Below, in pieces: positions 6,217 through 19,285 of a stretch of 64,000 nt of DNA. The notes below the pieces were generated by a model, which had not been told where the DNA came from, did no database searches, and saw only the letters and a list, made by a program, of their open reading frames with translations. The DNA is taken from the NCBI GenBank assembly GCA_039933215.1, contig JBDTOO010000018.1, forward strand, positions 305 to 64,304, given 5' to 3'. The position numbers and the translations under genes are program-made. This stretch comes from Acidobacteriota bacterium (lineage in GTDB: Bacteria > Acidobacteriota > Thermoanaerobaculia > UBA5066 > Gp7-AA6). Each line of letters starts with the position of its first letter. The first letter of the stretch is position 1.

Positions 6217-7042
6217 GGAAGTCTCCTTTCGAGACGAATGGGGCGACGCCGGCGGGAGACCGCCGGCCGGGCAGGAGGAGGTCGAGCAGAGGCACGAGGA
6301 GCGAGCAGAGGGCGAGCGACCAGACCGCCCCATTCGGCCGGAAGATGCGCAACTGGATGTAGGCGGCGCCCAACGCGACGGCGGCCCCGAAGAGAATCCG
6401 GGCAATCCGGGAGTCCGGCGTCGTCTTCGGGTCCGAGATCATGAAGAACGCGAAGAGAAGGATCGCCCCGCTCTGGAGGCGGTGCGCGGGGATCGTCCAG
6501 GGGTCGTGGACGGCGAGAGCGCGCGCAAAGAGAAGTGCGGCGTAGGTCGCGAGGAAAGCGAGCGTCACGTCCGCTCTCGCCGCCCGATGGACCACGAAGC
6601 GGCCGGCGCAGACGATGAGGAAGGCGAGGATGACCGCGCTGCCCCACTGGCCGGGCGAGACCCAGACGTCCGCTCCGGCCGCCAGCATCGCGACGAGGCC
6701 GAAGTTGGTCGGGTTGAAGAGATGCTTCCCGTTCCAACGCAGTGCGAACTTGCTGCCGATCGTGATGACGGCCGCCGCCACCGCGAGGAGCGCGGATGGC
6801 GTGCGCAGGAGAAGGCAGAGCGAGAGTCCCGAGATCAGCGCGCTCCACGGATCGAACGCGGCCAGCCGCGCCAGCCGTGAGAAGCCGAGTTGGGAGGCGA
6901 GAGCGGTCCCGAGGAGGAGGGCCGCCCTCGCCGGAGCGACGTCGAAGGAGAGCGCCGCCATGCCGTACGCCAGGAGCAGGGCGAGCGAGGCGATCTGGTA
7001 GAGGCGCGCGTCGGACCGTCGGAGAGGAGCGATCGGCAGCAT
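6101..7042 (-). CDS. Polytopic membrane protein, RnfD/NqrB-like family
   Basis: About 8 hydrophobic helices, with the motifs KHLFNPTNFG and FFMISDPKTTP that resemble the RnfD/NqrB FNPA... and FMATDP signatures. Its 3' end overlaps the DUF2330 gene by 116 nt (see findings). Confidence 0.7.
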   Translation of the reverse strand: MLPIAPLRRSDARLYQIASLALLLAYGMAALSFDVAPARAALLLGTALASQLGFSRLARLAAFDPWSALISGLSLCLLLRTPSALLAVAAAVITIGSKFALRWNGKHLFNPTNFGLVAMLAAGADVWVSPGQWGSAVILAFLIVCAGRFVVHRAARADVTLAFLATYAALLFARALAVHDPWTIPAHRLQSGAILLFAFFMISDPKTTPDSRIARILFGAAVALGAAYIQLRIFRPNGAVWSLALCSLLVPLLDLLLPGRRSPAGVAPFVSKGDFHAPLIDLRRRPAPVRALSRFPGPRLLRLLRGQGGREAL

Positions 7043-9272: not shown

Positions 9273-10289
9273 ATGAAATTCCGGATGCCCGTCCCGGTGC
9301 CGCTTCTCTCTCTGCTCGCCGCCTCTTCCATGCTGGCGCAGGCGGCTCCGCCCGCCGGTCCGCTCCCGGCCGCGACGCCCGTTCCGGCGGCAGCCGCCGT
9401 GCCCGCCGCGGCGCCAACGCCTCCCGCGGACATCGACGTACGCATGATCCGTTTCAAGATCTCCGCCGGAGATCTTGCGAGCGCGGAATCGATCCTCGAG
9501 TCCCACCGCGCCGCGAAGGGGGAGGACGACGATTACCTCATGGGGCTCGCGTGGGTCGCGCGCGGCGCCGCGCTGACGGGAGACTGGGCCGCCGCGAAGA
9601 CATGGGCCGACCGAGCGCGTCAGGCGGCCGAATCGAAGCTGAAGACCGCCATCGACTACGAGTCGCAGCGCGAGGCGCTGTATCTGCTCGGGACCTCGAT
9701 CGAGGTCCGGGCGCAGGCGCTCGTCGCGGCGGGGAAGACCGCGGACGCGATCCGATTCCTCGAGGAGAGCGCGAAGGCACAGGACGCGGCGCAGAGGCCC
9801 TACAATCTCCGTGCGCGGATCTGGAAGCGCCGCAACATGATTGAGCTCTCCGGAAAGCCCGCTCCCGCGATCCGCGCAGAGGACCGCGTGGGCGGGGAGG
9901 CCCCTTCCATCGAGTCGCTTCGCGGCAAGCCGGTGGTCCTGTATTTCTGGTGGGAGGCGTGCGGTGACTGCCGGATGCAGGCGGACGCGTTCCGCAGGAC
10001 CGTGGAGAAGTACGCACCGAGGGGCGTGGCGTTCCTCGCTCCGACGCGCTACTACCACGTGGGCGGCCACGCGGAGGAGAAGGGCGAAATCGAGAAAATG
10101 TGGAGCGAGGTCTATAAGCTCACGGGCTCCGTCCCCGTTGTGGTCTCGGACGAGGCCATGCTGCGCTACGGAGTCTCGGCGACCCCGACGTTCGTTTTCG
10201 TGAACCGGAAGGGGATCGTCACGCGCTACGCGCCGACGCGCATGACGGAAGAGCGTCTCGCCGCGGCGATCGAAGAGATCCTGAAGTGA
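9273..10289 (+). CDS. Secreted TlpA/redoxin-like thiol:disulfide oxidoreductase with an N-terminal helical (TPR-like) domain
   Basis: AAGGAG lies 6 nt upstream of ATG 9273. Signal peptide MKFRMPVPVPLLSLLAASSMLAQA. Thioredoxin-fold region GKPVVLYFWWEACGDCRMQ (CxxC) ...YGVSATPTFVFVNRKG. Confidence 0.85.
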   Translation: MKFRMPVPVPLLSLLAASSMLAQAAPPAGPLPAATPVPAAAAVPAAAPTPPADIDVRMIRFKISAGDLASAESILESHRAAKGEDDDYLMGLAWVARGAALTGDWAAAKTWADRARQAAESKLKTAIDYESQREALYLLGTSIEVRAQALVAAGKTADAIRFLEESAKAQDAAQRPYNLRARIWKRRNMIELSGKPAPAIRAEDRVGGEAPSIESLRGKPVVLYFWWEACGDCRMQADAFRRTVEKYAPRGVAFLAPTRYYHVGGHAEEKGEIEKMWSEVYKLTGSVPVVVSDEAMLRYGVSATPTFVFVNRKGIVTRYAPTRMTEERLAAAIEEILK

Positions 10290-10292
10290 CGA

Positions 10293-10324
10293 CTCGGGGG
10301 GAGGGGTCGCCCCCCTCCCCCGAG
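10293..10324. terminator. GC-rich hairpin between convergent genes (putative bidirectional terminator)
   Basis: CTCGGGGGGAGGGG-TCGC-CCCCCTCCCCCGAG, a 14-nt near-perfect inverted repeat. It has no flanking U-tract, so intrinsic termination is uncertain. Confidence 0.45.
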
Positions 10325-10383
10325 CTCTACGTCGAGCCGCTCCGAATGCGCGATGCCCGTCGACCCCTCGAATCGAATCGAGA

Positions 10384-10554
10384 TCAGTGGGTGATCGTCG
10401 CTTCCTTCAGGTGAGTACCGGTCGCGCACGTCTGAATCAGCACGGGGCGGGCCTTGCCCCCCTTCACGCTGCGAGCCTGCCTGGCCGACAGCGTCTTGGG
10501 TTTGAGAGCTCCGGCACCCGCGCGTTTCTTCCCTTTGGCCGTTTTCTTGTTCAT
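10384..10554 (-). CDS. GG-leader precursor peptide P1 (56 aa)
   Basis: MNKKTAKGKKRAGAGALKPKTLSARQARSVKGG|KARPVLIQTCATGTHLKEATITH. AGGAGG lies 5 nt upstream of ATG 10554. The leader is shared with P2-P6. The track shows it only as the tail of the artefactual 277-aa ORF 10384..11217. Confidence 0.8.
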   Translation of the reverse strand: MNKKTAKGKKRAGAGALKPKTLSARQARSVKGGKARPVLIQTCATGTHLKEATITH

Positions 10555-10616
10555 GCCGCCTCCTGCGCTTGTGATTGTTCCGCCGCGATCAGCGCGACGG
10601 TCGGCCGCCCTTCCGT

Positions 10617-10793
10617 TCAAGGCTTGATGTCGTACTTGAAATGGATCCCGGCGTCCAGACTCCCGTCGGTTTTCCCGGGCTTGTATTGGAGCGACGTTTC
10701 CCCCCCTTTGACGTTCCGGGCCTGCTTCGCGCTCAGCGTCTTCGCGCCGAGACTCCGAACCGATTTTTTCGCCTTCGCAGGTTTCTTCTTCAT
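10617..10793 (-). CDS. GG-leader precursor peptide P2 (58 aa)
   Basis: Hand translation: MKKKPAKAKKSVRSLGAKTLSAKQARNVKGG|ETSLQYKPGKTDGSLDAGIHFKYDIKP. GAGGAG lies 6 nt upstream of ATG 10793. Not in the ORF track (below 60 aa). Confidence 0.8.
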   Translation of the reverse strand: MKKKPAKAKKSVRSLGAKTLSAKQARNVKGGETSLQYKPGKTDGSLDAGIHFKYDIKP

Positions 10794-10818
10794 GTCTGGC
10801 TCCTCTGTCGAATTGGAA

Positions 10819-10834
10819 AGCAGCCCGGATGCCA
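10819..10834 (-). promoter_or_regulatory. Sigma-54 (-24/-12) promoter upstream of P2
   Basis: The minus strand reads TGGCAT-CCGGG-CTGCT with GG-N10-GC spacing (consensus TGGCAC-N5-TTGCW). It sits about 25 nt upstream of the P2 ATG. Confidence 0.65.
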
Positions 10835-10979
10835 GTCACCCCACGCGTTGAAGAGGCCTTCCGGGGCGGCTTTGCCCGCGGAGGCCGCGGCGGGTGGCCG
10901 GGGATGGATCGAACGTGAGACACGGATGGTGTCGATATGGGGCCGTCTAAGAACCACACCCCCCCTGCCATTTCTTTCA

Positions 10980-11159
10980 TCAGGTGATCAGTATGTCGTT
11001 CATCTTGACGATGAGGTACTCGTGCTGCTCCTTCCCGGCCTTGCGGCCCCCTTTGACATCCCGGGCGTTTCTGGCGCTCAGCGTTTTCGCGGGCAGATCC
11101 TTGACCCTCTTGTTCGCCTTCCCCTTCGCCTTCGCCTTTCCCGTTTTCTGCTTGTTCAT
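10980..11159 (-). CDS. GG-leader precursor peptide P3 (59 aa)
   Basis: Hand translation: MNKQKTGKAKAKGKANKRVKDLPAKTLSARNARDVKGG|RKAGKEQHEYLIVKMNDILIT. AGGAGG lies 5 nt upstream of ATG 11159. Not in the ORF track. Confidence 0.8.
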   Translation of the reverse strand: MNKQKTGKAKAKGKANKRVKDLPAKTLSARNARDVKGGRKAGKEQHEYLIVKMNDILIT

Positions 11160-11182
11160 CCTGCCTCCTGGTCCGCTTTGGA

Positions 11183-11198
11183 AGCAGACCCGGTGCCA
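11183..11198 (-). promoter_or_regulatory. Sigma-54 (-24/-12) promoter upstream of P3
   Basis: The minus strand reads TGGCAC-CGGGT-CTGCT with correct GG-N10-GC spacing, about 23 nt upstream of the P3 ATG. Confidence 0.7.
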
Positions 11199-11299
11199 CC
11201 CGCTCGGATTCCCTCACCAGGGCCGTTCGCGCCGTTATCTCGCGATTCCGCCGCGAGCGGGCTTCCGGCGTTGGACCGATTCTGAGACAATGGTCGGCG

Positions 11300-11305
11300 T
11301 ATAAT
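11300..11305 (+). promoter_or_regulatory. Candidate sigma-70 -10 box (TATAAT) upstream of the exporter operon
   Basis: A perfect TATAAT lies 28 nt upstream of TTG 11334. No convincing -35 at 17-nt spacing (TTGGAC lies 23 nt away). Confidence 0.3.
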
Positions 11306-11333
11306 CGGTCACTTCTCGGTCGCCACCCACGCT

Positions 11334-12401
11334 TTGGATGCGATGAAATCTCTTCTCGACCTTCCCGCGTTCGCCGTCGGCGAAGAAACGTACAGTTGGC
11401 AGGACGTCGTCCTGGCAGCGATGGTCCGCGGGGACTGGGCGGCTCTGGAAGTGCAGACCCGGGAAGGACTTGCGCTCGCGCACTGGGCAGAGAATGCCGG
11501 CGAAAGGCCGTCCGACGAGGACCTGGACGCCGTGGCGCAGGAGTTCCGCTACGAGCGGGACCTGATAGCCGCCGAGGAAATGGAAGTCTGGCTCGCTCGC
11601 TTCGGGCTCACCGTCGATGATTGGATGGGGGCCATCGAGCGCGCCATGCTTCGGTCGGCGCATCCCGAGGAGGTGGGCGACGCTCTCGCGCGATTCTCCG
11701 TCGACGAATCCGAGGTCTCGCGGAGCGCGCCGGCGGACGCCGTCTGTTCCGGCGCTCTCCCGCGGTTCGCGATGGCTCTCGCCGCCCGCGCCGCGATCGC
11801 CAACCGGTCCGGCGCCGAACCGCCGCGCGCCTTCGAGGAAGGGCGAAGCGCGGAACGGACCGGGCGGATGAGCTCCATCGATGCCGCGTTCGCGCGGCTC
11901 GGCTTCCCGCCCGCGAACGATGGGCGCGTCGCCGCTCTCGCCCGGCTCGAGGAGGGGTTCGAGGAGTTCTCCCGCCGTCTCGCGGACCCGTCGGCGATTC
12001 GAGGGCAGATCGAGGCGCATCGGCTCGACTGGATCCTGCTCGACTGGCGGGCGTTGGTCTTCTCCGAGGAGGCGGCCGCGCGCGAAGCCGCTCTCTGCCT
12101 GCGCGAAGACGGCGAGTCCCTCGAAGCCGTGGCGGAGGACGCCCATCTCTCCATCGTCGAGACACGCGCCTACCTCGGCGACGTCGACGCGAGCGCGCGG
12201 CCCGAACTGCTGAGCGCCCGCCCCGGCGATTTCGTTGGACCGCTCCGGATCGAGGACGTTTTCCACGTGCTTCAATTGCGCGGCAAGACCATGCCGTCCG
12301 AGGAGGATCCGGAAGTCCGCAACCGAGCGGAGACGAGCCTGAGGTCGAAGGTCACGGATCAAGAGGTCGCCGCGCGGGTCCGGTGGCACGATCCGGTCTA
12401 G
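11334..12401 (+). CDS. Hypothetical protein with a degenerate parvulin (PpiC)-like C-terminal region; candidate peptide-maturation or chaperone factor
   Basis: 355-aa ORF with good coding character, first gene of the exporter operon. C-terminal ...LLSARPGDFVGPLRIEDVFHVLQLRG... resembles the parvulin G-x-(V/I)-S-x-P-V-x-T-x-x-G-(Y/F)-H-(I/V) segment. Start is TTG 11334 or ATG 11343. Confidence 0.75.
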   Translation: MDAMKSLLDLPAFAVGEETYSWQDVVLAAMVRGDWAALEVQTREGLALAHWAENAGERPSDEDLDAVAQEFRYERDLIAAEEMEVWLARFGLTVDDWMGAIERAMLRSAHPEEVGDALARFSVDESEVSRSAPADAVCSGALPRFAMALAARAAIANRSGAEPPRAFEEGRSAERTGRMSSIDAAFARLGFPPANDGRVAALARLEEGFEEFSRRLADPSAIRGQIEAHRLDWILLDWRALVFSEEAAAREAALCLREDGESLEAVAEDAHLSIVETRAYLGDVDASARPELLSARPGDFVGPLRIEDVFHVLQLRGKTMPSEEDPEVRNRAETSLRSKVTDQEVAARVRWHDPV

Positions 12402-12732
12402 CAGGCGGCTGACAAAAGGATGCGAGCTTTCGGCCGGGGGCATGTGCTGAGAGAGTCGAAAGTGGAGGGCTGAAATTGGGAGGTCTTCTCGAGAGTTCTC
12501 GGCTGCCGGTCGTATCGCGACCGCCGCAGCCGAAAGCCGGGCGGGGCCGTCTGCGGCTTCGCCGCTCCTCCCCGAAGCGAAGGGGCATCGCCGTTCGTCG
12601 CGGATCCTTACATCCGACACCGCGGCGCTCGCCTCCCGCCCACCGAAGGCAGGCCCCCGGCAGTCGGGTACGCCGGCTACCGCCGGCGTTGACCCGCCCC
12701 ACACCGTTCTTCGGCAGCCTGATAGGGAAATC

Positions 12733-15700
12733 ATGAACGAGCGGGAGCTTCTCGACGAACTGCCGATCCTGCGGCTGCTGCCGGCAGAGGCGCGCTCTCT
12801 CGTCGTGGGCAGCTTCATCCCGGTGTCGTTTGCTTTCGGAGACACGATCGTCCGGGAGGGCGATCCGGCCGACGCCTTCTACGTGCTGGCCGCCGGCCGG
12901 GCGCGGATCGTCAAAAAGGGCGACGGCGGGGGAGAGATCCCGTTGAACAGCCTGCGTGCCGGCGACAGCTTCGGGGAGATGGGCCTGCTCGACCATTCGA
13001 CCCGGACCGCGTCGGTCCGCGCGTCGAGCGACGTTCGCGCCTGGCGCCTGGACAAGTCCGTCTTCCAGGCGCTGATCGCACAGAGCCCCGAGATCCGCCA
13101 GTACTTCGAGCTGCAGGTCCGCCACCGCCAGCTTTCGAATTTCTTCCGGGACTTCACGCCGTTCACGCGGCTTCCGCCGCCGGGCATGGCCCTGCTTCTC
13201 GGCAATCTCGAGAGCGTTCCGTTCGAGCCCGGCTCGGTCGTCGTGCGGCAGGGAGCCGAGCCCGGACCGATGTACTTCGTCGAATCCGGGCATCTTCGCG
13301 TCTTCACCGAGGACCCGGAGGGGCGACGGACGTACGTCGCCTACCTGCGCAAGGGGGACTTCTTCGGCGAGCTCTCCGTCTTCCGGGGATCCCGCCGTAC
13401 GGCGTCCGTGGAGGCGGTATCTGCCTGCCGGCTGCTCGCCCTGCACGCGGAGACTCTGCGCACGCTTCTCGATCGCTTCCCGGAGTTCCGATCTCAGATC
13501 GAGGAGCGCATCGCGCAGTACGACTACAAGGAGGCCGCGCGGGTCCCTCTCGACTTCGCCGAAGAGATCCTGCCCGCCGAGGCGTCGGCGCAGGAACAGG
13601 TCGGGTCGGACCAGGTCGAGCAAGGGGAAGAGGAAACGCGGGATCGCGCCGGGGAGCCCGGTGGGGCGTTCGAAGAGGAGGGACTCTTCGTCAAGAAGCC
13701 CGGACGCATCCGGCGCTTTCCGTTCGTCCGCCAGATCGACGAAGTGGACTGTGGGGCCGCCGCGCTCGCGATGGTATGCCGGCATTTCGGGCGAGCCGTG
13801 AGCCTCGCGCGCATCCGGCAACTCGTGCATACCTCGCTCGACGGCACGAGCCTGCGGGGAATCTGCGGCGCGGCCACGGAGCTCGGGCTCGCCGCGCGGT
13901 CCGTCAAGGCTTCCTCGCGGAATCTGGACGAGATGCCGCTTCCCGCGATCCTGCATTGGGAAGGGAACCACTGGGTGGTCCTTTACGACGTGACGGAGAC
14001 CCACTGCCGCGTCGCGGATTCCGCGATCGGGCTGCGGCGGTTCTCCCGCGCCGAATTCGAGAAGCGGTGGACGGGCTACGCCGCGCTGTTCGACTACACG
14101 AGCGAATTCGAGAACGCTCCCGTCGCCGTCTCGAACCTGGCCTGGCTGCGCCCCTTCTTCCGGCCCTTTACGAAGATCCTGCTCCAGGCCCTCGGCCTCT
14201 CGATCGTCGTCGCGGCTCTGCAGATGGTCCTGCCTGTCTTCACGCAGGTGATCGTCGACCGGGTGCTCGTGGAAAGGGACGTGTCGCTTCTGAACCTCCT
14301 CATGCTCGGCATGGGCGTCGTCATCGTCTTCCTGGTGCTGTCACTCGCCGTGCAGCGTTATCTGCTCAGCTTCGTGGCGGTGCGCGTCGACGCTTCAACG
14401 CTCGACTACCTGACGCGCAAGATGCTGGGCCTCCCCATGAGCTACTTCACGACCCGGCGCACCGGCGACATCCAGCGGCGTCTCGAAGGGATTCGCCAGG
14501 TCCGGGAGTTCCTCGTCCAGAGCGGCGTGGCCGGGGTCACCGCCGCGACGCAGCTCGCGGCGAGCCTCCTCCTGATGCTTCTCTACAGCCGGACTCTCAC
14601 CCTGGTGTTCCTCGCGACGGCTCCCGTCTACGGGTTGCTGATGTTCTATTCGTCGCGATGGCTCCGGCCGATCTTCGACGTCGTCGAGGATTCCTTCGGC
14701 AAGTACCACTCGTACCAGATCGATGCGATCAAGGGGATCGAGACCGTCAAGGCCATGGGCGCCGAGGGTTCATTCCGCAATCTGATGCTCGGGCAGTTCC
14801 TGAGCGTCGCCCGCCGCCTCTTCCGCGCGGACTTCACCGTGATGGGATACCGAGGCGCGGTCCAGACGGTCACTCTGCTGACGACGGCGCTCTTTCTCGG
14901 TATCGGAGCGCGTCAGGTGATGGGCGGGGCGCTCACGATCGGCGGTCTGGTGGCCTTCAACGCGCTGGTGGCTCTCGCGAACGCCCCGATCCTGACCCTG
15001 CTGACGATCTGGGACAACTGGCAACACTCCGCCGTTCTCCTGAACCGCTTGAACGACGTCTTCGAGCAGGAGCCCGAGCAAGGGGCCGACCGCTCCCGCC
15101 TCGTACCGGTGCGGAGCCTGGAGGGACGGATCGAGCTCCACGACCTCGGCTTCTCATACGGGCCGGAGGCCCCCGAGATCCTGAAGGGCATCACGTTCGA
15201 CGTCGAGCCGGGCAAGCGGGTGGCGATCGTCGGCCGCAGCGGCTCGGGTAAGACGACGCTCGTGAAGTGCCTGGCGGGTCTGCTCGAGCCGACGGAAGGC
15301 GCGATTCGCTACGACGGCGTGGATCTCAAGACTCTCAACTATCGCGACCTCAGGCGCCAGGTCGGATTCGTTCTGCAGGACAACTTTCTCTTTTCCGACA
15401 CGATCGCCCGCAACATCGCCTTTGGCGAGGACGAGCCGGACATGGACCGCGTGCTCTGGGCTTCCCGCGTGGCGAACGCGCACGAGTTCGTCGAGCGGCT
15501 TCCCCTCGGGTACGACACGAAAGTGGGTGAGAGCGGGATCGCCGTATCCGGCGGGCAGAAGCAGCGGATCGCGATCGCCCGGTCCGTCTACGCCAAACCG
15601 CCGGTGTTGATTTTCGACGAGGCGACGAGCTCGCTCGACACCGAATCGGAGCGCGCGGTGCAGGAGAATCTCGCCCAGTTGCTGAAGGGAAGGACGTCCT

Positions 15701-15858
15701 TCGTGATCGCGCACCGGTTGAGCACGATCGTCGACTCGGACTGGATCCTCGTCCTGGAGAAGGGGCGCCTCGTCGAGCAGGGCACCCACGAGCAGCTCCT
15801 CGACCGCCGCGGCCTCTACTATTACCTCTCGAGCCAGCAGATCGGCCTCTCCACATGA
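12733..15858 (+). CDS. Peptidase-C39 ABC exporter (PCAT) with two N-terminal cyclic-nucleotide-binding domains
   Basis: Two CAP_ED-like domains (..FGDTIVREGDPADAFYVLAAGRARIV..GDSFGEMGLL..RTASVRA.. and ..PGSVVVRQGAEPGPMYFVESGHLRV..GDFFGELSVF..RTASVEA..). C39 domain with catalytic Cys (QIDEVDCGAAALAMV) and His (WEGNHWVVLYDV). Six-TM ABC domain. Walker A GRSGSGKTT, signature VSGGQKQR, Walker B VLIFDEATS. Confidence 0.93.
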   Translation: MNERELLDELPILRLLPAEARSLVVGSFIPVSFAFGDTIVREGDPADAFYVLAAGRARIVKKGDGGGEIPLNSLRAGDSFGEMGLLDHSTRTASVRASSDVRAWRLDKSVFQALIAQSPEIRQYFELQVRHRQLSNFFRDFTPFTRLPPPGMALLLGNLESVPFEPGSVVVRQGAEPGPMYFVESGHLRVFTEDPEGRRTYVAYLRKGDFFGELSVFRGSRRTASVEAVSACRLLALHAETLRTLLDRFPEFRSQIEERIAQYDYKEAARVPLDFAEEILPAEASAQEQVGSDQVEQGEEETRDRAGEPGGAFEEEGLFVKKPGRIRRFPFVRQIDEVDCGAAALAMVCRHFGRAVSLARIRQLVHTSLDGTSLRGICGAATELGLAARSVKASSRNLDEMPLPAILHWEGNHWVVLYDVTETHCRVADSAIGLRRFSRAEFEKRWTGYAALFDYTSEFENAPVAVSNLAWLRPFFRPFTKILLQALGLSIVVAALQMVLPVFTQVIVDRVLVERDVSLLNLLMLGMGVVIVFLVLSLAVQRYLLSFVAVRVDASTLDYLTRKMLGLPMSYFTTRRTGDIQRRLEGIRQVREFLVQSGVAGVTAATQLAASLLLMLLYSRTLTLVFLATAPVYGLLMFYSSRWLRPIFDVVEDSFGKYHSYQIDAIKGIETVKAMGAEGSFRNLMLGQFLSVARRLFRADFTVMGYRGAVQTVTLLTTALFLGIGARQVMGGALTIGGLVAFNALVALANAPILTLLTIWDNWQHSAVLLNRLNDVFEQEPEQGADRSRLVPVRSLEGRIELHDLGFSYGPEAPEILKGITFDVEPGKRVAIVGRSGSGKTTLVKCLAGLLEPTEGAIRYDGVDLKTLNYRDLRRQVGFVLQDNFLFSDTIARNIAFGEDEPDMDRVLWASRVANAHEFVERLPLGYDTKVGESGIAVSGGQKQRIAIARSVYAKPPVLIFDEATSSLDTESERAVQENLAQLLKGRTSFVIAHRLSTIVDSDWILVLEKGRLVEQGTHEQLLDRRGLYYYLSSQQIGLST

Positions 15859-17084
15859 ACGATTCCTCACCCGCCGCGGCGCCCGGCGAGGCCCCTTACC
15901 TGGACGTCGAACCGCCGGCATGGGCCGCGCGGTCGCTCGCGACGGTCCTGATCTCGCTGTTCGCGGTCCTCGCGATCGCCGCTCTGGCGGTCCACGTGCC
16001 GGAGACCATATCGGCTCAGTTCGTGATCGTGCCCGTCCGGGGCACCGACCCGGTGCGCGCGTTCCGGGACGGTATCGTCACCGAGGCGCGCGTTCGCGAC
16101 ACGCAGACCGTCCGGGCGGGAGAGACGCTGTTCGTCATCACCTCACCGGCCATCGGCGATCGTGCGGCGGAGTCGGCGGGTCTGCAGGCGCAGCTCGCCG
16201 GCGCCGGAGAGCGATCCGGCAACGTGCGGACCCGGTACGAGAACGAGCAGCGGGCGCGAGACGAAGAAGAGTCGCGCCTCCGGATCCGCCTCGCGAGCCT
16301 CGAGAAGACGATCCAGATGAACACGCAGCAGCTCTCGATCGCGGCGGAGCTGGCGGAGCGGCAGAAAAAGGCGTTCGACGAGGGGATCTCGAGCTGGTCG
16401 GATCTCGCCCGCGTCCGGCTGGAAATCAATCGGCTGCAGATCGAGGCGCAGCAGGCGCAGGCGGAACGGGACGAGATCCGGCGTGCGGTCGCGAAGTCGG
16501 CCCACGAGAATCTCGCCCGCCAGTCGGAGTTCCGCGAATCCGAGCGCTCCGCGGCGGAGGATCTCGGAAAGGCCCGCGTTCGCACGACCATGCTCGAGAA
16601 AGAGCTCGCACAGACGGGCAATCAGCTCACGGCGGCCGCTCCCTGCGCCGGCAGCGTGGTGAAGACCAACATCCGCGGCGTCGGCGCGGTGGTCCGCGAG
16701 GGCGACGTCCTCGCGGAAGTCGCCTGCCGGGGGGAAAGGCTCGAGGCGGAGCTCACCATTCCGCAGGACGGGATGGCGCTCCTGCGGCCGGGCCAGGACG
16801 TCAAGCTCCTCTACGACGCGTTCCCTTATCAGCGCTACGGCGTGCGGCTCGCGAGGGTTCGCTGGGTGAGCCCGGCCGGGACGGGCGAGCCCGGAAAGGC
16901 GTCCTTCCGGGCGCTCGCCGACCTGAAGGAAACCGACGTGCCGGTCCGGGGTCAGAGGAGGCCGGTCGAGTCCGGGATGGGCGGCCGGGCGCGCATCATC
17001 GTGGGCCGGCGGTCTCTCGTGTCCTACGTCTTCGAGCCGTTGCGCCAGTTGAAAGAGAGCCTGGCTCCGGTGCCCTCGAAATGA
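15855..17084 (+). CDS. HlyD-family periplasmic adaptor (membrane fusion protein)
   Basis: The start overlaps the exporter stop (ATGA). One N-terminal TM helix, a long coiled-coil (..LRIRLASLEKTIQMNTQQLSIAAELAERQKKAFDEG..EINRLQIEAQQAQAERDEI..) and a C-terminal beta-barrel segment. Confidence 0.9.
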   Translation: MNDSSPAAAPGEAPYLDVEPPAWAARSLATVLISLFAVLAIAALAVHVPETISAQFVIVPVRGTDPVRAFRDGIVTEARVRDTQTVRAGETLFVITSPAIGDRAAESAGLQAQLAGAGERSGNVRTRYENEQRARDEEESRLRIRLASLEKTIQMNTQQLSIAAELAERQKKAFDEGISSWSDLARVRLEINRLQIEAQQAQAERDEIRRAVAKSAHENLARQSEFRESERSAAEDLGKARVRTTMLEKELAQTGNQLTAAAPCAGSVVKTNIRGVGAVVREGDVLAEVACRGERLEAELTIPQDGMALLRPGQDVKLLYDAFPYQRYGVRLARVRWVSPAGTGEPGKASFRALADLKETDVPVRGQRRPVESGMGGRARIIVGRRSLVSYVFEPLRQLKESLAPVPSK

Positions 17085-17103: not shown

Positions 17104-18093
17104 ATGACGCGCTCTCAGGACGCTTTGTCCCTGACCCTCGACGACTACCACGGCCGCGATCCCGCGATGCAGCGGTGCCTCGAGCAGGCGCGGCTCGCCG
17201 CGCGGACCGATCTTCCGATCCTGATCCTCGGAGAATCCGGGACCGGAAAGACCCTGCTCGCGCGCGCCGTCCACAACTCGTCTCCCCGGCGGGACGGGCC
17301 GTTCGTTTCCTTCAACGCCGCGGCCCTTTCGGACACCCTTCTCGATTCTCAGCTCTTCGGTCACGAGCGAGGCGCCTTCACCGGCGCGCAGAATCGCGTC
17401 AAGGGGAAGTTCGAGCTGGCGAACTCCGGTTCGCTCTTCATCGACGAGATCGCCGACATGAGCGCCTCGGGCCAGGGCAAGATCCTTCGCGCCGTCGAGT
17501 ACGGCGAGTTCGAGCGGCTGGGCTCGGAAACGATCCAGGTGTCCGACGTCCGCCTGCTGTCGGCGACGCACTTTCCGATGGGAGTGTTCACGGAGTCCGA
17601 GCGATTCCGGCGGGACCTGTTCTTCCGGATCAGCGGTTGGACGATCACGCTTCCGCCCCTGCGGGAGCGGCGAAAGGACCTCCCGCTGCTGCTCGCGTCC
17701 GAGATCGCGCGCGCGAGCCGGGAGCAGAAAAAGCCGATCGTGGGACTCGAGCGGGATGCCGTCGACCGCGTCCTCGCTCACGCCTGGCCGGGTAACCTGA
17801 GGGAGCTCTCCCGCGTGGTGGACGTGGCGGTCGCGTCGTGCGAGGCCGGAGTCGTGACCGCGGACGCGCTCTACCTCCAGTCCTTCCCCGACCCGGACGG
17901 TCGCCCCGCGTCTCCCGTCTCCCCGGCGTCAACCGGCGCGGAGACCCTCAGCCTCGCGGCGGCCGAACGCCGCCACATCGGAAGCGTGCTCGCCCGGCTG
18001 GCAGGAAACAAGCGGGCGGCCGCGAAAGCGCTCGGAATCTCCCGGTCGACGCTCGACCGCAAGTTAAACGACGCCGCGAAGGACGCCCGGTAA
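17104..18093 (+). CDS. Sigma-54-dependent transcriptional activator (AAA+ enhancer-binding protein plus Fis-type HTH) lacking an N-terminal sensory domain
   Basis: Walker A ILGESGTGKTLLA, the sigma-54 contact loop FGHERGAFTGA, Walker B LFIDEIADM, WPGNLRELSRVV, and C-terminal HTH NKRAAAKALGISRSTLDRKL. The AAA+ domain begins within about 25 residues of the N-terminus. Confidence 0.9.
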   Translation: MTRSQDALSLTLDDYHGRDPAMQRCLEQARLAARTDLPILILGESGTGKTLLARAVHNSSPRRDGPFVSFNAAALSDTLLDSQLFGHERGAFTGAQNRVKGKFELANSGSLFIDEIADMSASGQGKILRAVEYGEFERLGSETIQVSDVRLLSATHFPMGVFTESERFRRDLFFRISGWTITLPPLRERRKDLPLLLASEIARASREQKKPIVGLERDAVDRVLAHAWPGNLRELSRVVDVAVASCEAGVVTADALYLQSFPDPDGRPASPVSPASTGAETLSLAAAERRHIGSVLARLAGNKRAAAKALGISRSTLDRKLNDAAKDAR

Positions 18094-18100
18094 CCGCCGG

Positions 18101-18283
18101 TCAGTAACCGCGACGCTTCGAATCGAGCGACTCTCCCTTGATGTCCCCGAGCTTCGCGAAGACGTCGACGGCGCCGCCTTTCACCCGCTTCGCCTGATCG
18201 GCCTTCAGCCGCTTCGCAGGCAGGTTCGAAACGCTCTTCTTCGCGGCTTTGCCGCTCTTGCTGGATCCACGCCTGGTCGCCAT
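18101..18283 (-). CDS. GG-leader precursor peptide P4 (60 aa)
   Basis: MATRRGSSKSGKAAKKSVSNLPAKRLKADQAKRVKGG|AVDVFAKLGDIKGESLDSKRRGY. GAGGAGAGGAAA lies upstream of ATG 18283. The track ORF 18101..18310 starts 9 codons earlier at a less likely ATG. Confidence 0.8.
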   Translation of the reverse strand: MATRRGSSKSGKAAKKSVSNLPAKRLKADQAKRVKGGAVDVFAKLGDIKGESLDSKRRGY

Positions 18284-18339
18284 ACGATTTCCTCTCCTCT
18301 TTCTCTCCATCGGAGCTTTGTCGCGAGCTTCGACGGTCG

Positions 18340-18510
18340 TCAGATGTCCATCGTGTCCGGATGCTTCGGGTCGAGCGATTCTCCCTTGATGTTCCCGATC
18401 CTGCCGCCTTTGATCCGTTTCGCCTGATCCCCCTTCAACGACTTCGGGGGAAGGCTCTTCGCCCGCTTGCCCGGCGAACCGGCCGCCTTCCTTCCTCGAT
18501 CGCTCGGCAT
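18340..18510 (-). CDS. GG-leader precursor peptide P5 (56 aa)
   Basis: MPSDRGRKAAGSPGKRAKSLPPKSLKGDQAKRIKGG|RIGNIKGESLDPKHPDTMDI. GGAG lies 6 nt upstream of ATG 18510. In the track it is only the tail of the artefactual ORF 18340..18804. Confidence 0.78.
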   Translation of the reverse strand: MPSDRGRKAAGSPGKRAKSLPPKSLKGDQAKRIKGGRIGNIKGESLDPKHPDTMDI

Positions 18511-18537
18511 GGATGCTCCATTGGATGGAACTCGGGT

Positions 18538-18553
18538 AGCAAGTCTGCAGCCA
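18538..18553 (-). promoter_or_regulatory. Sigma-54 (-24/-12) promoter upstream of P5-P4
   Basis: The minus strand reads TGGCTG-CAGAC-TTGCT with GG-N10-GC spacing and a perfect TTGC -12 element, about 27 nt upstream of the P5 ATG. Confidence 0.7.
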
Positions 18554-18635
18554 GATCGATTCGGGGGGGCGAGAACCCTCGTGGGGGCCCGGTGTGCCGG
18601 GCGATTCGTGCGAAAAAGCCCGCCACCGGTGCGCT

Positions 18636-18652
18636 CCGCCGCGGAGGCGGCG
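18636..18652. promoter_or_regulatory. Candidate shared enhancer (UAS) palindrome between the divergent sigma-54 promoters
   Basis: CGCCGC-GGAG-GCGGCG is a 6-4-6 inverted repeat almost exactly midway between the -24 elements at 18553 and 18728. A related CCGCGG-AGG-CCGCGG lies at 10876..10890 upstream of the P2 promoter. GC palindromes are frequent in this genome, so support is weak. Confidence 0.25.
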
Positions 18653-18726
18653 AGAGGCCGCCCGGGGGCCAGGAGAGGGGACCCCGAAGGCTCATGTCTC
18701 AGAATGGAACACGCGAGGTCCCGGAA

Positions 18727-18742
18727 CGGTACCGTGCCTGCG
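18727..18742 (+). promoter_or_regulatory. Candidate sigma-54 promoter upstream of P7-P6
   Basis: CGGTAC-CGTGC-CTGCG has correct GG-N10-GC spacing, with one mismatch in each element relative to GGCAC/TTGC. Confidence 0.45.
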
Positions 18743-18821
18743 CCGAAGGCTCTCCGGGGCCGCGCGAAGTCTCTCCGCTCGCGCGAGTTGCGCGAACGCC
18801 TCATCTGGCGGAGAAACTGCT

Positions 18822-19052
18822 ATGGCAGGAAGAAAATGGAAGCGAAGATGGCTCGAGCCGAGACTCGAAAGGCGTGAAACCGAAGTGAAGCGGATCCGCC
18901 GGCGGACCCGCGAGGTCGTCCTCCTGAAGGACCTGGCTCCCCGTCAGGAGATCAAGGGAGGAAGCGGAAAGCGGCTCTTCGGCGAGCGCATCGCTTCGAC
19001 GGAGTCGGAGGCGAAGGCCAGGAGGGTTTCTCGAAAGACGAAGCCCTCCTAG
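18822..19052 (+). CDS. Divergent GG-motif precursor peptide P7 (76 aa from ATG 18822, or 55 aa from GTG 18885)
   Basis: ...(V/M)KRIRRRTREVVLLKDLAPRQEIKGG|SGKRLFGERIASTESEAKARRVSRKTKPS. It has a basic N-terminus and a KDL(P)A..IKGG motif like P3-P5, but the leader is shorter. GGAGAA lies upstream of ATG 18822. It is the C-terminal part of track ORF 18594..19052. Confidence 0.5.
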   Translation: MAGRKWKRRWLEPRLERRETEVKRIRRRTREVVLLKDLAPRQEIKGGSGKRLFGERIASTESEAKARRVSRKTKPS

Positions 19053-19097
19053 TTCGACGAGCAGAGTGGATCGCAACGGAGCGAAAGGAGAGGGACG

Positions 19098-19265
19098 ATG
19101 GCAACCAGGAAGAGTCGGAAGCCCGCGAAGAAGGTCAAGTCGATGAAGGCGAAGAGCCTGAATGCGAAGCAGGCCAGGAGCGTCAAGGGCGGCAAAACGA
19201 CGCTTCAGGACATCAGCTTCGTTCACAGTGTCGATAAGGCGAGCCCGGTCCTCCTTCAGAAATAA
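19098..19265 (+). CDS. GG-leader precursor peptide P6 (55 aa)
   Basis: Hand translation: MATRKSRKPAKKVKSMKAKSLNAKQARSVKGG|KTTLQDISFVHSVDKASPVLLQK. AAGGAG lies 7 nt upstream of ATG 19098. Not in the ORF track. Confidence 0.8.
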   Translation: MATRKSRKPAKKVKSMKAKSLNAKQARSVKGGKTTLQDISFVHSVDKASPVLLQK

Positions 19266-19285
19266 GACGGGCCGATCTCGAAGGG

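What the first reader, a model, noticed from the sequence alone, without database searches (positions are those of the whole stretch)
10819..11198. Near-consensus sigma-54 promoters immediately upstream of P2 and P3
The minus strand reads TGGCATCCGGGCTGCTT at 10819..10834 and TGGCACCGGGTCTGCTT at 11183..11198. Both have the invariant GG and GC at 12-nt register and sit 23-25 nt from the respective ATG. That would give very short leaders containing only the SD.

Two such matches in front of two paralogous 58-59-aa genes, next to a sigma-54 activator gene, are unlikely to be coincidental.

P1 has no equivalent element (the best candidate is off by one nucleotide), so it is probably read through from P2.

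GC-rich palindromes lie 45-60 nt further upstream: CCGCGG-AGG-CCGCGG at 10876..10890 and CTCGCG-N7-CGCGAG at 11239..11257. They are possible activator sites, but palindromes of this kind are common in this genome.
Basis: partly seen in the sequence, partly recalled or inferred. Interest (0 to 1): 0.7.

Follow-up and report, generated by a model that had tools for sequence, protein, structure and literature searches.

The report
Sigma-54 promoters driving secreted-peptide genes
Two small secreted-peptide genes (and two more peptide operons nearby) are preceded by sigma-54-type promoters with binding sites for an activator encoded in the same export-gene cluster, an arrangement conserved in soil bacteria of several phyla, so this looks like a real but conventional kind of tight on/off switch applied to an unusual set of peptides.

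Summary
TGGCATCCGGGCTGCT (10819-10834, -) and TGGCACCGGGTCTGCT (11183-11198, -) are the only matches to TGGCAY-N5-YTGCW in 64 kb (0.07 expected). They end 25 and 23 nt before the ATGs of P2 and P3.

The sigma-54 reading is well supported by comparison, though no transcript data exist.
- The window holds seven double-glycine-leader peptide genes in four units. Each unit has a -24/-12 element: P3; P2-P1; P5-P4 (18538-18553, -); P7-P6 (18806-18821, +).
- They flank a conserved operon: orfX, a peptidase-containing ABC exporter, HlyD, and a sensor-less activator with an intact GAFTGA motif.
- In 80 related loci, 22 of 29 activator-containing loci carry TGG-N9-TGC just downstream of the activator gene (background 14%).
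- A 19-bp palindrome (TGGTCTCG-AAT-CGAGACCA) sits about 91, 114 and 135 nt upstream of these promoters.
- Promoters with such a palindrome at 80-140 nt number 28 in activator-containing loci and none in 49 loci without the activator.
- A palindrome matrix trained without the window finds sites at the expected positions in it.

The two flagged promoters are paralogous, so they are not independent.

In passing: the mature parts of the peptides are collinear fragments of the type VI secretion tube protein Hcp.

The parts
11183..11198 (-). -24/-12 (sigma-54 type) promoter of P3: TGGCACCGGGTCTGCT. The start site is predicted near 11172, giving a leader of about 13 nt that contains AGGAGG.
   Evidence: It matches 10 of 11 consensus positions.
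10819..10834 (-). -24/-12 promoter of the P2-P1 unit: TGGCATCCGGGCTGCT. The start site is predicted near 10808, giving a leader of about 15 nt that contains GAGGAG.
   Evidence: It is the top hit in the window for a promoter matrix built from other genomes (14.5 bits).
18538..18553 (-). -24/-12 promoter of the P5-P4 unit: TGGCTGCAGACTTGCT, ending 27 nt before the ATG at 18510.
18806..18821 (+). -24/-12 promoter of the P7-P6 unit: TGGCGGAGAAACTGCT. It corresponds to the 'main' promoter found downstream of the activator gene in related loci (L012 TGGCAAGGAAACTGCT, L001 TGGCAAGGAAGGTGCT, L062 TGGCAAGAAGGATGCT).
11272..11290 (.). Upstream activator site for the P3 promoter, 92 nt upstream of the -24 TGG (minus strand reads TTGTCTCAGAATCGGTCCA). 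It also lies 53 nt upstream of the orfX ATG.
   Evidence: Scores 9.8 bits with a matrix trained without the window, at the canonical -91 position.
10927..10945 (.). Upstream activator site for the P2 promoter, at -111 (TGGTGTCGATATGGGGCCG on the plus strand).
   Evidence: Scores 14.7 bits with the matrix trained without the window.
10905..10923 (.). Variant upstream site for the P2 promoter, at -89 (minus strand GTGTCTCACGTTCGATCCA). It aligns with the P3 site but the right arm is one base closer.
   Evidence: Alignment and sequence. It scores below the matrix threshold, so it is tentative.
18694..18734 (.). Pair of upstream activator sites (18694-18712 and 18716-18734) shared by the divergent P7 and P5 promoters. 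They lie at -112 and -90 from the P7 promoter and at -159 and -181 from the P5 promoter, in phase with the 22.5-bp spacing.
   Evidence: 11.6 and 14.0 bits.
10980..11159 (-). P3 precursor, 59 aa. The leader ends in VKGG. Core: RKAGKEQHEYLIVKMNDILIT.
10617..10793 (-). P2 precursor, 58 aa. Core: ETSLQYKPGKTDGSLDAGIHFKYDIKP.
10384..10554 (-). P1 precursor, 56 aa. It has no promoter of its own, starts 62 nt after the P2 stop, and is followed by a hairpin at 10293-10324.
18340..18510 (-). P5 precursor, 56 aa. Core: RIGNIKGESLDPKHPDTMDI.
18101..18283 (-). P4 precursor, 60 aa. Core: AVDVFAKLGDIKGESLDSKRRGY. It lies downstream of P5 and has no promoter of its own.
18885..19052 (+). P7 precursor (GTG start). 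Leader VKRIRRRTREVVLLKDLAPRQEIKGG, core SGKRLFGER... It belongs to a conserved peptide class found in 13 sources, all of which encode the activator.
19098..19265 (+). P6 precursor, 55 aa. Core: KTTLQDISFVHSVDKASPVLLQK.
17104..18093 (+). Sigma-54 enhancer-binding protein, 329 aa. It consists of an AAA+ domain (Walker A GESGTGK, GAFTGA) and an HTH_8 domain only, with no sensory domain. It is the last gene of the exporter operon.
11343..17084 (+). orfX (11343-12401, weak parvulin-like match); an ABC exporter with two cyclic-nucleotide-binding domains and a C39 peptidase domain (12733-15858); and a HlyD adaptor (15855-17084). Together with the activator gene they form the conserved core operon.

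Best explanation
The two flagged elements are genuine sigma-54 (-24/-12) promoters. They belong to a small local regulon of four such promoters that drive seven double-glycine-leader peptide genes: P3; P2-P1; P5-P4; P7-P6.

Proposed mechanism (all steps inferred):
1. Sigma-54 RNA polymerase sits in a closed complex on TGGCAC-N5-CTGCT.
2. The cluster's own activator (17104-18093) binds 19-bp palindromes related to TGGTCTCG-AAT-CGAGACCA. This protein is a PspF-like AAA+ protein with GAFTGA and a Fis-type DNA-binding domain but no sensor domain. The palindromes are centred about 90, 112 and 135 nt upstream of the -24 element, two helical turns apart.
3. The activator contacts the polymerase by DNA looping and uses ATP to open the promoter.
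4. Transcripts have very short leaders of about 13-17 nt that carry only a Shine-Dalgarno sequence.
5. The precursors are then cut after Gly-Gly and exported by the adjacent ABC transporter with its C39 peptidase domain, together with HlyD.

Because the activator is the last gene of the exporter operon, peptide transcription would be coupled to prior expression of the exporter. This last point is inference only.

Shown here: the motifs, their positions, their conservation, and their strict co-occurrence with the activator gene. Inferred: which protein binds the palindromes, the transcription start sites, RpoN dependence, and what switches the activator on.
For: - The stringent consensus pattern has only these 2 matches in 64 kb, against 0.07 expected. 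A looser pattern adds two more sites directly upstream of further peptide genes.
- All four promoters are followed by a double-glycine peptide gene. Three of them lie 23-27 nt before an ATG preceded by a Shine-Dalgarno sequence.
- In related loci from Acidobacteriota, Gemmatimonadota and Methylomirabilota, 22 of 29 activator-containing loci have TGG-N9-TGC within 400 nt downstream of the activator gene on the coding strand. The rate is 13.6% in random windows and 2 of 29 on the opposite strand, giving a binomial p of about 5e-14. These sites are followed by peptide genes.
- A palindromic upstream motif sits at about -91, -114 and -135.
- A matrix trained without the window recovers window sites at -92, -111, -90 and -112.
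- Loci not used for training show the same geometry.
- Promoters with such a site 80-140 nt upstream: 21 in trained activator-containing loci, 7 in untrained ones, and 0 in 49 loci without the activator (846 kb).
- All 31 activator homologues keep GAFTGA and a nearly invariant recognition helix, SRSTLDRKL. This matches the conserved DNA motif.
- Alignment of the P2, P3, P5 and L012 upstream regions shows the -24/-12 block as the best-conserved stretch in otherwise diverged flanks.
- There is no sigma-70 consensus promoter in 10200-11400 or 18000-19400.
- Actinomycetota loci have the exporter and peptides but no activator and no such promoter. That phylum lacks sigma-54 (own knowledge).
Against: - There are no transcript, start-site or binding data.
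- rpoN is not in the window, and its presence in the genome could not be checked.
- The promoter motif alone carries little information in this GC-rich DNA. A matrix from other genomes does not separate P3 and P5 from background.
- The related loci share ancestry, so the binomial p-value overstates independence.
- P2 and P3 are duplicates of each other.
- The upstream-site matrix was trained on regions chosen because they lie upstream of candidate promoters. This is partly circular, though it is mitigated by the untrained loci, the window-free training and the unconstrained positions.
- The P3 upstream site scores only 9.8 bits. P5 has no site at the usual distance.
- A few loci without the activator (L010, L015, L023, L045) have a similar promoter-like element after HlyD but no local activator.
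- Leaders of 13-17 nt are at the short extreme.
Confidence: 0.8

Rival explanations
1. The motifs are real and conserved, and sigma-54 uses them, but a different enhancer-binding protein encoded elsewhere in the genome activates them. The local activator and the palindromes would then serve something else, for example autoregulation of the exporter operon.
For: The protein-to-site assignment rests on co-occurrence only. Single palindromes without a promoter lie at the start of orfX in L006, L007, L008, L011 and L061. Some loci without the activator keep a promoter-like element after HlyD.
Against: The promoter-plus-palindrome module is found in 28 cases in activator-containing loci and in none without it. 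The fixed phased distance of palindrome to promoter is what activation by looping predicts. The recognition helix and the palindrome are both conserved across phyla.
Confidence: 0.07
2. The conserved block is a regulatory element of another kind, and the resemblance to -24/-12 is incidental. It could be an operator for a repressor or a promoter for a sigma-70-family or ECF sigma factor. The peptide genes would then be transcribed from unrecognised sigma-70-type promoters or by read-through.
For: Promoter consensus sequences in Acidobacteriota and Gemmatimonadota are poorly known, so the negative sigma-70 scans are weak evidence. The motif carries little information. A further conserved TTG about 18 nt upstream of the TGG is unexplained.
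Against: GG and GC keep their exact spacing across phyla while the spacer varies. The element co-occurs strictly with a sigma-54-specific activator that carries GAFTGA. It is absent from Actinomycetota loci that have the same exporter and peptides.
Confidence: 0.08
3. The matches are chance occurrences in GC-rich DNA, copied once when the peptide gene was duplicated. They have no function.
For: P2 and P3 upstream regions are paralogous. Matrix scores of this size occur in shuffled sequence.
Against: The stringent pattern is expected 0.07 times and is observed only in front of peptide genes. Four of four transcription units have one. It is conserved in other phyla, with upstream sites at phased distances.
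Confidence: 0.04

Closest known systems
PEP-CTERM / PrsK-PrsR-PrsT regulon of Proteobacteria (Haft et al. 2006, PMC1569441)
   Same: A paralogous family of small secreted-protein genes, most of them separate transcription units. Each is preceded by a sigma-54 -24(GG)/-12(GC) motif and a second conserved motif assigned to a dedicated enhancer-binding protein. That assignment was also made by comparative genomics and co-occurrence. The distance from motif to start codon can be as short as 23 nt in that paper, as it is here.
   Different: PrsR is a response regulator with a receiver domain and a partner kinase. The activator here has no sensory domain and no kinase is nearby. The cargo there is PEP-CTERM proteins sorted by exosortase. 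Here it is double-glycine-leader peptides exported by an ABC transporter with a C39 peptidase domain. The activator scores 247.9 bits against the PrsR model TIGR02915, whose cutoff is 502.6, so it is not PrsR.
PspF and the pspA promoter; HrpR/HrpS and the hrpL promoter (enhancer-binding proteins without a regulatory domain; own knowledge)
   Same: The activator consists only of an AAA+ domain with GAFTGA plus a C-terminal helix-turn-helix. It binds paired upstream sites about 80-130 bp from a -24/-12 promoter, and an IHF site often lies in between. Such proteins are active by default and are controlled in trans (PspA, HrpV) or by their level.
   Different: It is not an orthologue of PspF. It scores 245.9 bits against TIGR02974 (cutoff 443.55) and 214.3 against NF008622 (cutoff 529). 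No PspA- or HrpV-like partner is recognised. The target genes are peptide precursors rather than stress or type III secretion genes.
Peptidase-containing ABC transporter (PCAT) loci for double-glycine peptides, including NHLP/Nif11 systems (Haft 2010, PMC2887384) and HetC of Nostoc (PMC10986499)
   Same: An exporter with a C39 peptidase domain and an ABC domain, partnered by HlyD, next to arrays of precursor genes that share a leader ending in GG but have varied cores. Like HetC, the exporter has N-terminal cyclic-nucleotide-binding domains.
   Different: It falls below the NHLP exporter cutoffs (530.6 against 853.3 for TIGR03796). The leaders match no NHLP, Nif11 or other curated leader model. 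Four literature searches found no paper describing sigma-54 control of such precursor genes. Well-studied Gram-positive double-glycine peptide systems use quorum-sensing two-component or Rgg-type regulators (own knowledge).

Membership tests
Sigma-54-dependent (-24/-12) promoter | Invariant GG and GC doublets separated by exactly 10 nt | tested here: met
   All four window sites have GG-N10-GC. The same holds for about 30 sites in related loci.
Sigma-54-dependent (-24/-12) promoter | Match to the extended consensus TGGCAC-N5-TTGCW | tested here: met
   P3 matches 10 of 11 positions, and P2 and P5 match 9 of 11. The P7 promoter matches 8 of 11. Its lineage-specific homologues in L001, L012 and L062 match 9 of 11. 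The stringent pattern is expected 0.07 times and observed twice.
Sigma-54-dependent (-24/-12) promoter | Intergenic, on the coding strand, upstream of a gene at a workable distance | tested here: met
   The sites end 23, 25 and 27 nt before the ATG of P3, P2 and P5, and 63 nt before the GTG start of P7. Another hit to the looser pattern, at 36277, falls within long ORFs.
Sigma-54-dependent (-24/-12) promoter | A cognate enhancer-binding protein with an intact GAFTGA loop is encoded in the genome | tested here: met
   The gene at 17104-18093 has Sigma54_activat (E 3.6e-58), GAFTGA, Walker A and HTH_8.
Sigma-54-dependent (-24/-12) promoter | Upstream activator sites roughly 80-150 bp from the promoter | tested here: met
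   Conserved 19-bp palindromes lie at -90/-92, -111/-112 and -135. Binding by the activator is inferred, not shown.
Sigma-54-dependent (-24/-12) promoter | rpoN is present in the same genome | not testable with these tools
   No RpoN-box ORF is in the window.
Sigma-54-dependent (-24/-12) promoter | Transcription starts about 12 nt downstream of the GC and depends on RpoN and the activator | not testable with these tools
   This needs 5'-end mapping and genetics.
PspF-type (regulatory-domain-less) enhancer-binding protein | An AAA+ sigma-54 interaction domain plus a C-terminal helix-turn-helix, with no N-terminal receiver or sensor domain | tested here: met
   The protein is 329 aa, with the AAA+ match starting at residue 17 and HTH_8 at residues 284-322. 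Only 17 in-frame codons lie upstream of the match, and HlyD ends 20 nt before the start codon.
PspF-type (regulatory-domain-less) enhancer-binding protein | Orthology to PspF (score above the curated equivalog cutoff) | tested here: not met
   TIGR02974 scores 245.9 against a cutoff of 443.55, and NF008622 scores 214.3 against 529. The protein works like PspF in architecture but is not a PspF family member.
PCAT export system for double-glycine-leader peptides | An ABC exporter with an N-terminal C39 peptidase domain, plus substrates with a leader ending in Gly-Gly | tested here: met
   Peptidase_C39 (E 9.5e-37), ABC_membrane and ABC_tran are all present. The catalytic-position Cys is visible in the motif DEVDCGAAALAM. 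The six window peptides found with the leader model share K.LSAKQAR.VKGG, and P7 has the variant LKDLAPRQEIKGG.
NHLP/Nif11 bacteriocin system | Exporter above the TIGR03796/03797 cutoffs, and precursors carrying an NHLP or Nif11 leader domain | tested here: not met
   The exporter scores 530.6 against 853.3 and 374.1 against 709.4. The peptides hit no NCBIfam or Pfam leader model.
Hcp (type VI secretion tube protein) | A full-length T6SS_HCP domain of about 130-160 aa | tested here: not met
   Each core covers only 20-27 residues of Hcp. P6 scores 22.7 bits against the Pfam cutoff of 23.5. The concatenated cores align collinearly to Hcp1 (PDB 1y12) at E 7.9e-17. They are Hcp-derived fragments, not Hcp.

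The most novel reading that the evidence does not exclude
The regulon may be more than a bacteriocin-type switch. The exported peptides are collinear fragments of the type VI secretion tube protein Hcp, each fused to its own double-glycine leader. One further peptide class (P7: ..LL.DLAPR..V.GG|..KRLFGE..) occurs only in loci that also encode the sensor-less activator.

The most novel reading that is not excluded has two parts:
- The Hcp-strand peptides are secreted mimics that interfere with, or signal about, type VI secretion tubes of neighbouring cells.
- The P7-class precursor is the missing trans-acting partner of the activator. It would act as an anti-activator that the ABC exporter removes from the cell, in the manner of FlgM. 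Sigma-54 transcription of the other peptides would then be licensed only when the cyclic-nucleotide-gated exporter is running.
Probability: 0.1. Interest if true: 0.9.

Novelty: new member of a known kind. Interest (0 to 1): 0.5.

Why it matters
Sigma-54 promoters are silent without their activator. Finding them, with a dedicated sensor-less activator, in front of every precursor unit of a widely conserved peptide-export cluster gives a concrete regulatory model for a peptide system in uncultured soil phyla (Thermoanaerobaculia and other Acidobacteriota, Gemmatimonadota, Methylomirabilota).

The model is directly testable. It also gives a practical handle: co-expressing the 329-aa activator should switch on the peptide genes in a heterologous rpoN-positive host. 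The combined signature of palindrome, phased spacing and -24/-12 element can be used to find further precursor genes that gene callers miss.

As a regulatory mechanism it is conventional. The unusual part is the cargo, which consists of Hcp fragments.

Tried and rejected
- A promoter matrix built from 28 sites in other genomes and scanned over the window is not discriminating. Shuffled windows have best hits averaging 13.8 bits, against 14.5 for P2, 10.6 for P3 and 8.8 for P5. I therefore do not claim significance from the motif score alone.
They occur at chance frequency and are not conserved.
- A sigma-54 promoter for the orfX-exporter-HlyD-activator operon was sought upstream of orfX in 54 sources (53 loci and the window). 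None was found.
- A sigma-70 consensus scan of both peptide regions found nothing. The scan is a weak test for these phyla.
- I looked for an intrinsic terminator between P3 and P2 and between P2 and P1. No structure stands out from shuffles (z -0.7 and +0.8). Only the hairpin after P1 is notable (z -1.9).
- I considered that the site at L020 14628, between HlyD and the activator gene, shows positive autoregulation. The ATG that follows opens only an 18-codon ORF, out of frame with the activator gene, so I make no claim.
- rpoN is absent from the window.
- NCBIfam and Pfam give no family for any of the six peptides tested, apart from the sub-threshold Hcp match of P6. orfX has no NCBIfam match and only a weak Rotamase_2 match (E 0.015) in Pfam.
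- Four literature searches found no description of sigma-54-controlled double-glycine peptide genes or of Hcp-fragment peptides.
Full report
**Observation**

On the minus strand, TGGCATCCGGGCTGCT occupies 10834-10819 and TGGCACCGGGTCTGCT occupies 11198-11183. Both have GG and GC separated by 10 nt, as in the sigma-54 consensus TGGCAC-N5-TTGCW. They end 25 nt and 23 nt before the ATGs of the 58-aa and 59-aa ORFs P2 (10617-10793) and P3 (10980-11159).

TGGCAYN5YTGCW matches nowhere else in the 64-kb window on either strand. 0.07 matches are expected, and no shuffle out of 100 reached 2.

**What surrounds it**

The window is about 69% GC. P1, P2 and P3 are not isolated. The window encodes seven small precursors with a lysine-rich leader ending in Gly-Gly. 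Six share K.LSAKQAR.VKGG, and one (P7) has LKDLAPRQEIKGG.

| Peptide | Coordinates | Strand |
|---|---|---|
| P3 | 10980-11159 | - |
| P2 | 10617-10793 | - |
| P1 | 10384-10554 | - |
| P5 | 18340-18510 | - |
| P4 | 18101-18283 | - |
| P7 | 18885-19052 (GTG start) | + |
| P6 | 19098-19265 | + |

Between the two groups lies an operon on the plus strand:
- orfX (11343-12401), with no family apart from a weak parvulin-type match.
- A 1041-aa ABC exporter with two cyclic-nucleotide-binding domains and a C39 peptidase domain (12733-15858).
- A HlyD adaptor (15855-17084).
- A 329-aa sigma-54 enhancer-binding protein (17104-18093).

The activator has Walker A (GESGTGK), GAFTGA and a C-terminal HTH_8, but no sensory domain. 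The AAA+ match starts at residue 17 and HlyD ends 20 nt upstream.

**More promoters of the same kind in the window**

A looser pattern (TGGC-N8-TGCT) gives five hits where 0.7 are expected.
- Two are the flagged sites.
- A third, TGGCTGCAGACTTGCT (18553-18538, minus), ends 27 nt before the ATG of P5.
- A fourth, TGGCGGAGAAACTGCT (18806-18821, plus), precedes P7-P6.
- The fifth (36277) lies within long ORFs and is probably chance.

So each of the four peptide transcription units begins with a -24/-12 element. P1 and P4 follow P2 and P5 at 62 and 56 nt. P6 follows P7 at 45 nt. None of these three has an element of its own. A 14-bp GC hairpin at 10293-10324 follows P1. No sigma-70 consensus promoter is found in either region.

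**Comparative test**

Using the exporter as query, I fetched 80 related loci. They come from Thermoanaerobaculia and other Acidobacteriota, Gemmatimonadota, Methylomirabilota, Vicinamibacteria, Verrucomicrobiota and Actinomycetota.

The order orfX, exporter, HlyD, activator is conserved in 31 loci, with the activator 49-78% identical and placed directly after HlyD. The Actinomycetota loci have orfX, the exporter and peptides but neither HlyD nor the activator.

A leader model built from the window peptides finds 61 further precursors in 25 loci, mostly in tandem arrays.

In 22 of the 29 activator-containing loci with enough sequence, TGG-N9-TGC occurs within 400 nt downstream of the activator gene on the coding strand. 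The rate in random windows of the same loci is 13.6%, and the opposite strand has 2 of 29. The binomial p is about 5e-14, which is inflated by shared ancestry.

The spacer and flanks differ between phyla while TGG...TTGC stays fixed. Examples are TGGCAAGGAAGGTGCT, TGGTCCGGGGTTTGCC, TGGAATGCGACTTGCC and TGGCCCGGCGATTGCT. Nearly all of these sites are followed by a double-glycine peptide gene.

L012 has, upstream of orfX on the opposite strand, a six-gene peptide array. Its first gene is a P2 homologue preceded by TGGCACCGATGCTGCT. Aligned with the P2, P3 and P5 upstream regions, the -24/-12 block is the best-conserved stretch. The same alignment shows that the P2 and P3 regions are duplicates, so they are not independent evidence.

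**Upstream activator sites**

Upstream of these promoters I found a 19-bp palindrome with consensus TGGTCTCG-AAT-CGAGACCA. Its position relative to the first T of the -24 element clusters at about -91, -114 and -135, that is, 22-23 bp apart.

I then took all matrix hits of at least 13 bits and all TGG-N9-TGC sites in 1.5 Mb. Their oriented distances show peaks at 80-99, 110-119 and 130-139 nt and almost nothing elsewhere.

A matrix trained without the window finds the following sites in the window:

| Site | Score (bits) | Position |
|---|---|---|
| 10927-10945 | 14.7 | -111 from the P2 promoter |
| 18716-18734 | 14.0 | -90 from the P7 promoter |
| 18694-18712 | 11.6 | -112 from the P7 promoter |
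| 11272-11290 | 9.8 | -92 from the P3 promoter |

The 18694-18734 pair also lies at -159 and -181 from the divergent P5 promoter, in phase with the same spacing. A variant site at 10905-10923 (-89 from P2) aligns with the P3 site but scores below threshold.

Loci not used for training (L026, L027, L037, L040, L043) show the same geometry.

| Group | Palindrome density (per 100 kb) | Promoters with a palindrome at 80-140 nt |
|---|---|---|
| Trained, with activator | 9.8 | 21 |
| Untrained, with activator | 7.9 | 7 |
| Without activator (49 loci, 846 kb) | 1.65 | 0 |

All 31 activators keep GAFTGA and an almost invariant recognition helix (GGNKRRAA.ALG.SRSTLDRKL). This fits a DNA motif conserved across phyla.

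**Limits**

- A promoter matrix from other genomes does not by itself separate the window sites from shuffled background.
- The palindrome matrix was trained on regions picked upstream of candidate promoters.
- rpoN is not in the window and could not be looked for in the genome.
- There are no transcript data.
- A conserved TTG about 18 nt upstream of the -24 TGG appears in the promoters downstream of the activator gene. It often sits in a context resembling the IHF consensus WATCAANNNNTTR (my reading of the sequences). It is unexplained and absent from the P2, P3 and P5 promoters.
- Some Methylomirabilota loci without a local activator keep a promoter-like element after HlyD.

**Mechanism proposed**

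Sigma-54 polymerase binds the four -24/-12 elements. The sensor-less activator binds the phased palindromes and opens the promoters by ATP hydrolysis. Short-leader mRNAs of about 13-17 nt (about 53 nt for P7) are translated. The precursors are cut after Gly-Gly by the C39 domain and exported.

The activator is the last gene of the exporter operon, so precursor transcription would follow exporter synthesis. What controls the activator is unknown. By analogy with PspF and HrpS, I expect control by its level or by a partner acting in trans. All of this is inference.

**Comparison with what is known**

The closest documented analogue is the PEP-CTERM/PrsR regulon. There, paralogous small secreted-protein genes each carry a sigma-54 motif plus an activator motif, and this was also deduced by comparative genomics (PMC1569441).

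The activator resembles PspF in architecture but fails the PspF, PrsR and all other curated cutoffs. The exporter resembles NHLP exporters and HetC but is below the NHLP cutoffs. Four literature searches found no report of sigma-54-controlled double-glycine peptide genes.

I rate the finding a new member of a known kind of regulatory system.

**Seen in passing**

The mature parts of the peptides are pieces of Hcp, the type VI secretion tube protein. The cores of P4, P6/P1 (merged across their overlap), P3 and P2, joined in that order, align collinearly to residues 5-22, 53-116 and 133-152 of P. aeruginosa Hcp1 (PDB 1y12) at E 7.9e-17. P6 alone nearly reaches the Pfam T6SS_HCP cutoff. Peptides of L001 match Hcp-family chains too, including the C-terminal SGWDL.ANK.

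The P7 class (..LL.DLAPR..V.GG|..K..FGE) occurs in 13 sources, all with the activator.

These two points are the most unusual features of the locus and are the basis of the novel reading given separately.

**Verdict**

The switch itself is of moderate interest. The cargo may deserve a separate look.

Noticed in passing
window 10384-11159 (-), 18101-18510 (-), 19098-19265 (+); L001, L002, L012, L062 peptide arrays: The mature (post-GG) parts of the peptides are collinear fragments of the type VI secretion tube protein Hcp. The joined cores of P4, P6/P1, P3 and P2 hit P. aeruginosa Hcp1 (1y12) at E 7.9e-17, over residues 5-22, 53-116 and 133-152. Each fragment has its own leader and ribosome-binding site. 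No described family or paper was found.
   Followed up: partly
window 18885-19052 (+); L001, L002, L006, L008, L012, L018, L026, L027, L032, L060, L061, L062: A distinct conserved precursor class (leader ..V.LL.DLAPR..V.GG, core ..K(R)LFGE..) occurs in 13 sources, all of which encode the sensor-less activator, and in none of the 49 loci without it. It is often the first gene after the main promoter. It could be a regulatory partner of the activator.
   Followed up: partly
L001-L062 main promoters, about 17-31 nt upstream of the -24 TGG; window 18775-18790: A conserved TTG, often in a context like the IHF consensus (CAA-N4-TTG), sits at a fixed distance upstream of the -24 element in the promoters downstream of the activator gene. 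It is absent from the window's P2, P3 and P5 promoters. Its role is unexplained.
   Followed up: no
L006 5470, L007 8849, L008 8844, L011 1089, L061 8853 (start of the orfX homologue); window 11272-11290 lies 53 nt upstream of orfX: Single high-scoring activator palindromes (14-20 bits) overlap the start of orfX in Gemmatimonadaceae loci, with no sigma-54 promoter nearby. This suggests the activator may also repress or tune its own exporter operon.
   Followed up: no
window 11343-12401 (+) and homologues in most loci: orfX is found directly upstream of the exporter in most loci, including many Actinomycetota loci that lack HlyD and the activator. Its only hit is a weak parvulin-type PPIase match (Rotamase_2, E 0.015). 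It may be a chaperone or processing factor for the peptides.
   Followed up: partly
L049, L054, L056-L058, L064-L069, L071, L072, L075, L076, L079 (Actinomycetota loci): The same exporter with cyclic-nucleotide-binding and C39 domains occurs here without HlyD, without the activator, and without promoter-plus-palindrome modules. orfX homologues were detected in all but L071, and double-glycine peptides in only three loci. In those three (L057, L064, L069) the peptide gene directly follows the exporter gene. This serves as a natural negative control for the sigma-54 module.
   Followed up: partly
window 6219-6237 and 61936-61954: Two palindrome-matrix hits (13.7 and 14.5 bits) have no -24/-12 element at the expected distance. 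They are probably chance or unrelated hairpins.
   Followed up: no
L010 14643, L015 14670, L023 7596, L020 14628, L045 14449: Promoter-like elements (TGGAACGCG-N3-TTGCC in the Methylomirabilota loci, TGGCGCTGCGCTTGCT in L045) lie directly after HlyD. L010, L015, L023 and L045 have no local activator. L020 does have one, and there the element sits between HlyD and the activator gene. In L015 the element is followed by a double-glycine peptide gene. These loci have no palindrome of 13 bits or more (the only one in L020 serves its other promoter), so activation may come from elsewhere.
   Followed up: partly
window 19286-20458 (-): A 390-aa cysteine-rich ORF runs convergent with P6. Its only match is a faint CxxCxxCC (zinc/iron-chelating) hit, and its function is unknown.
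   Followed up: no
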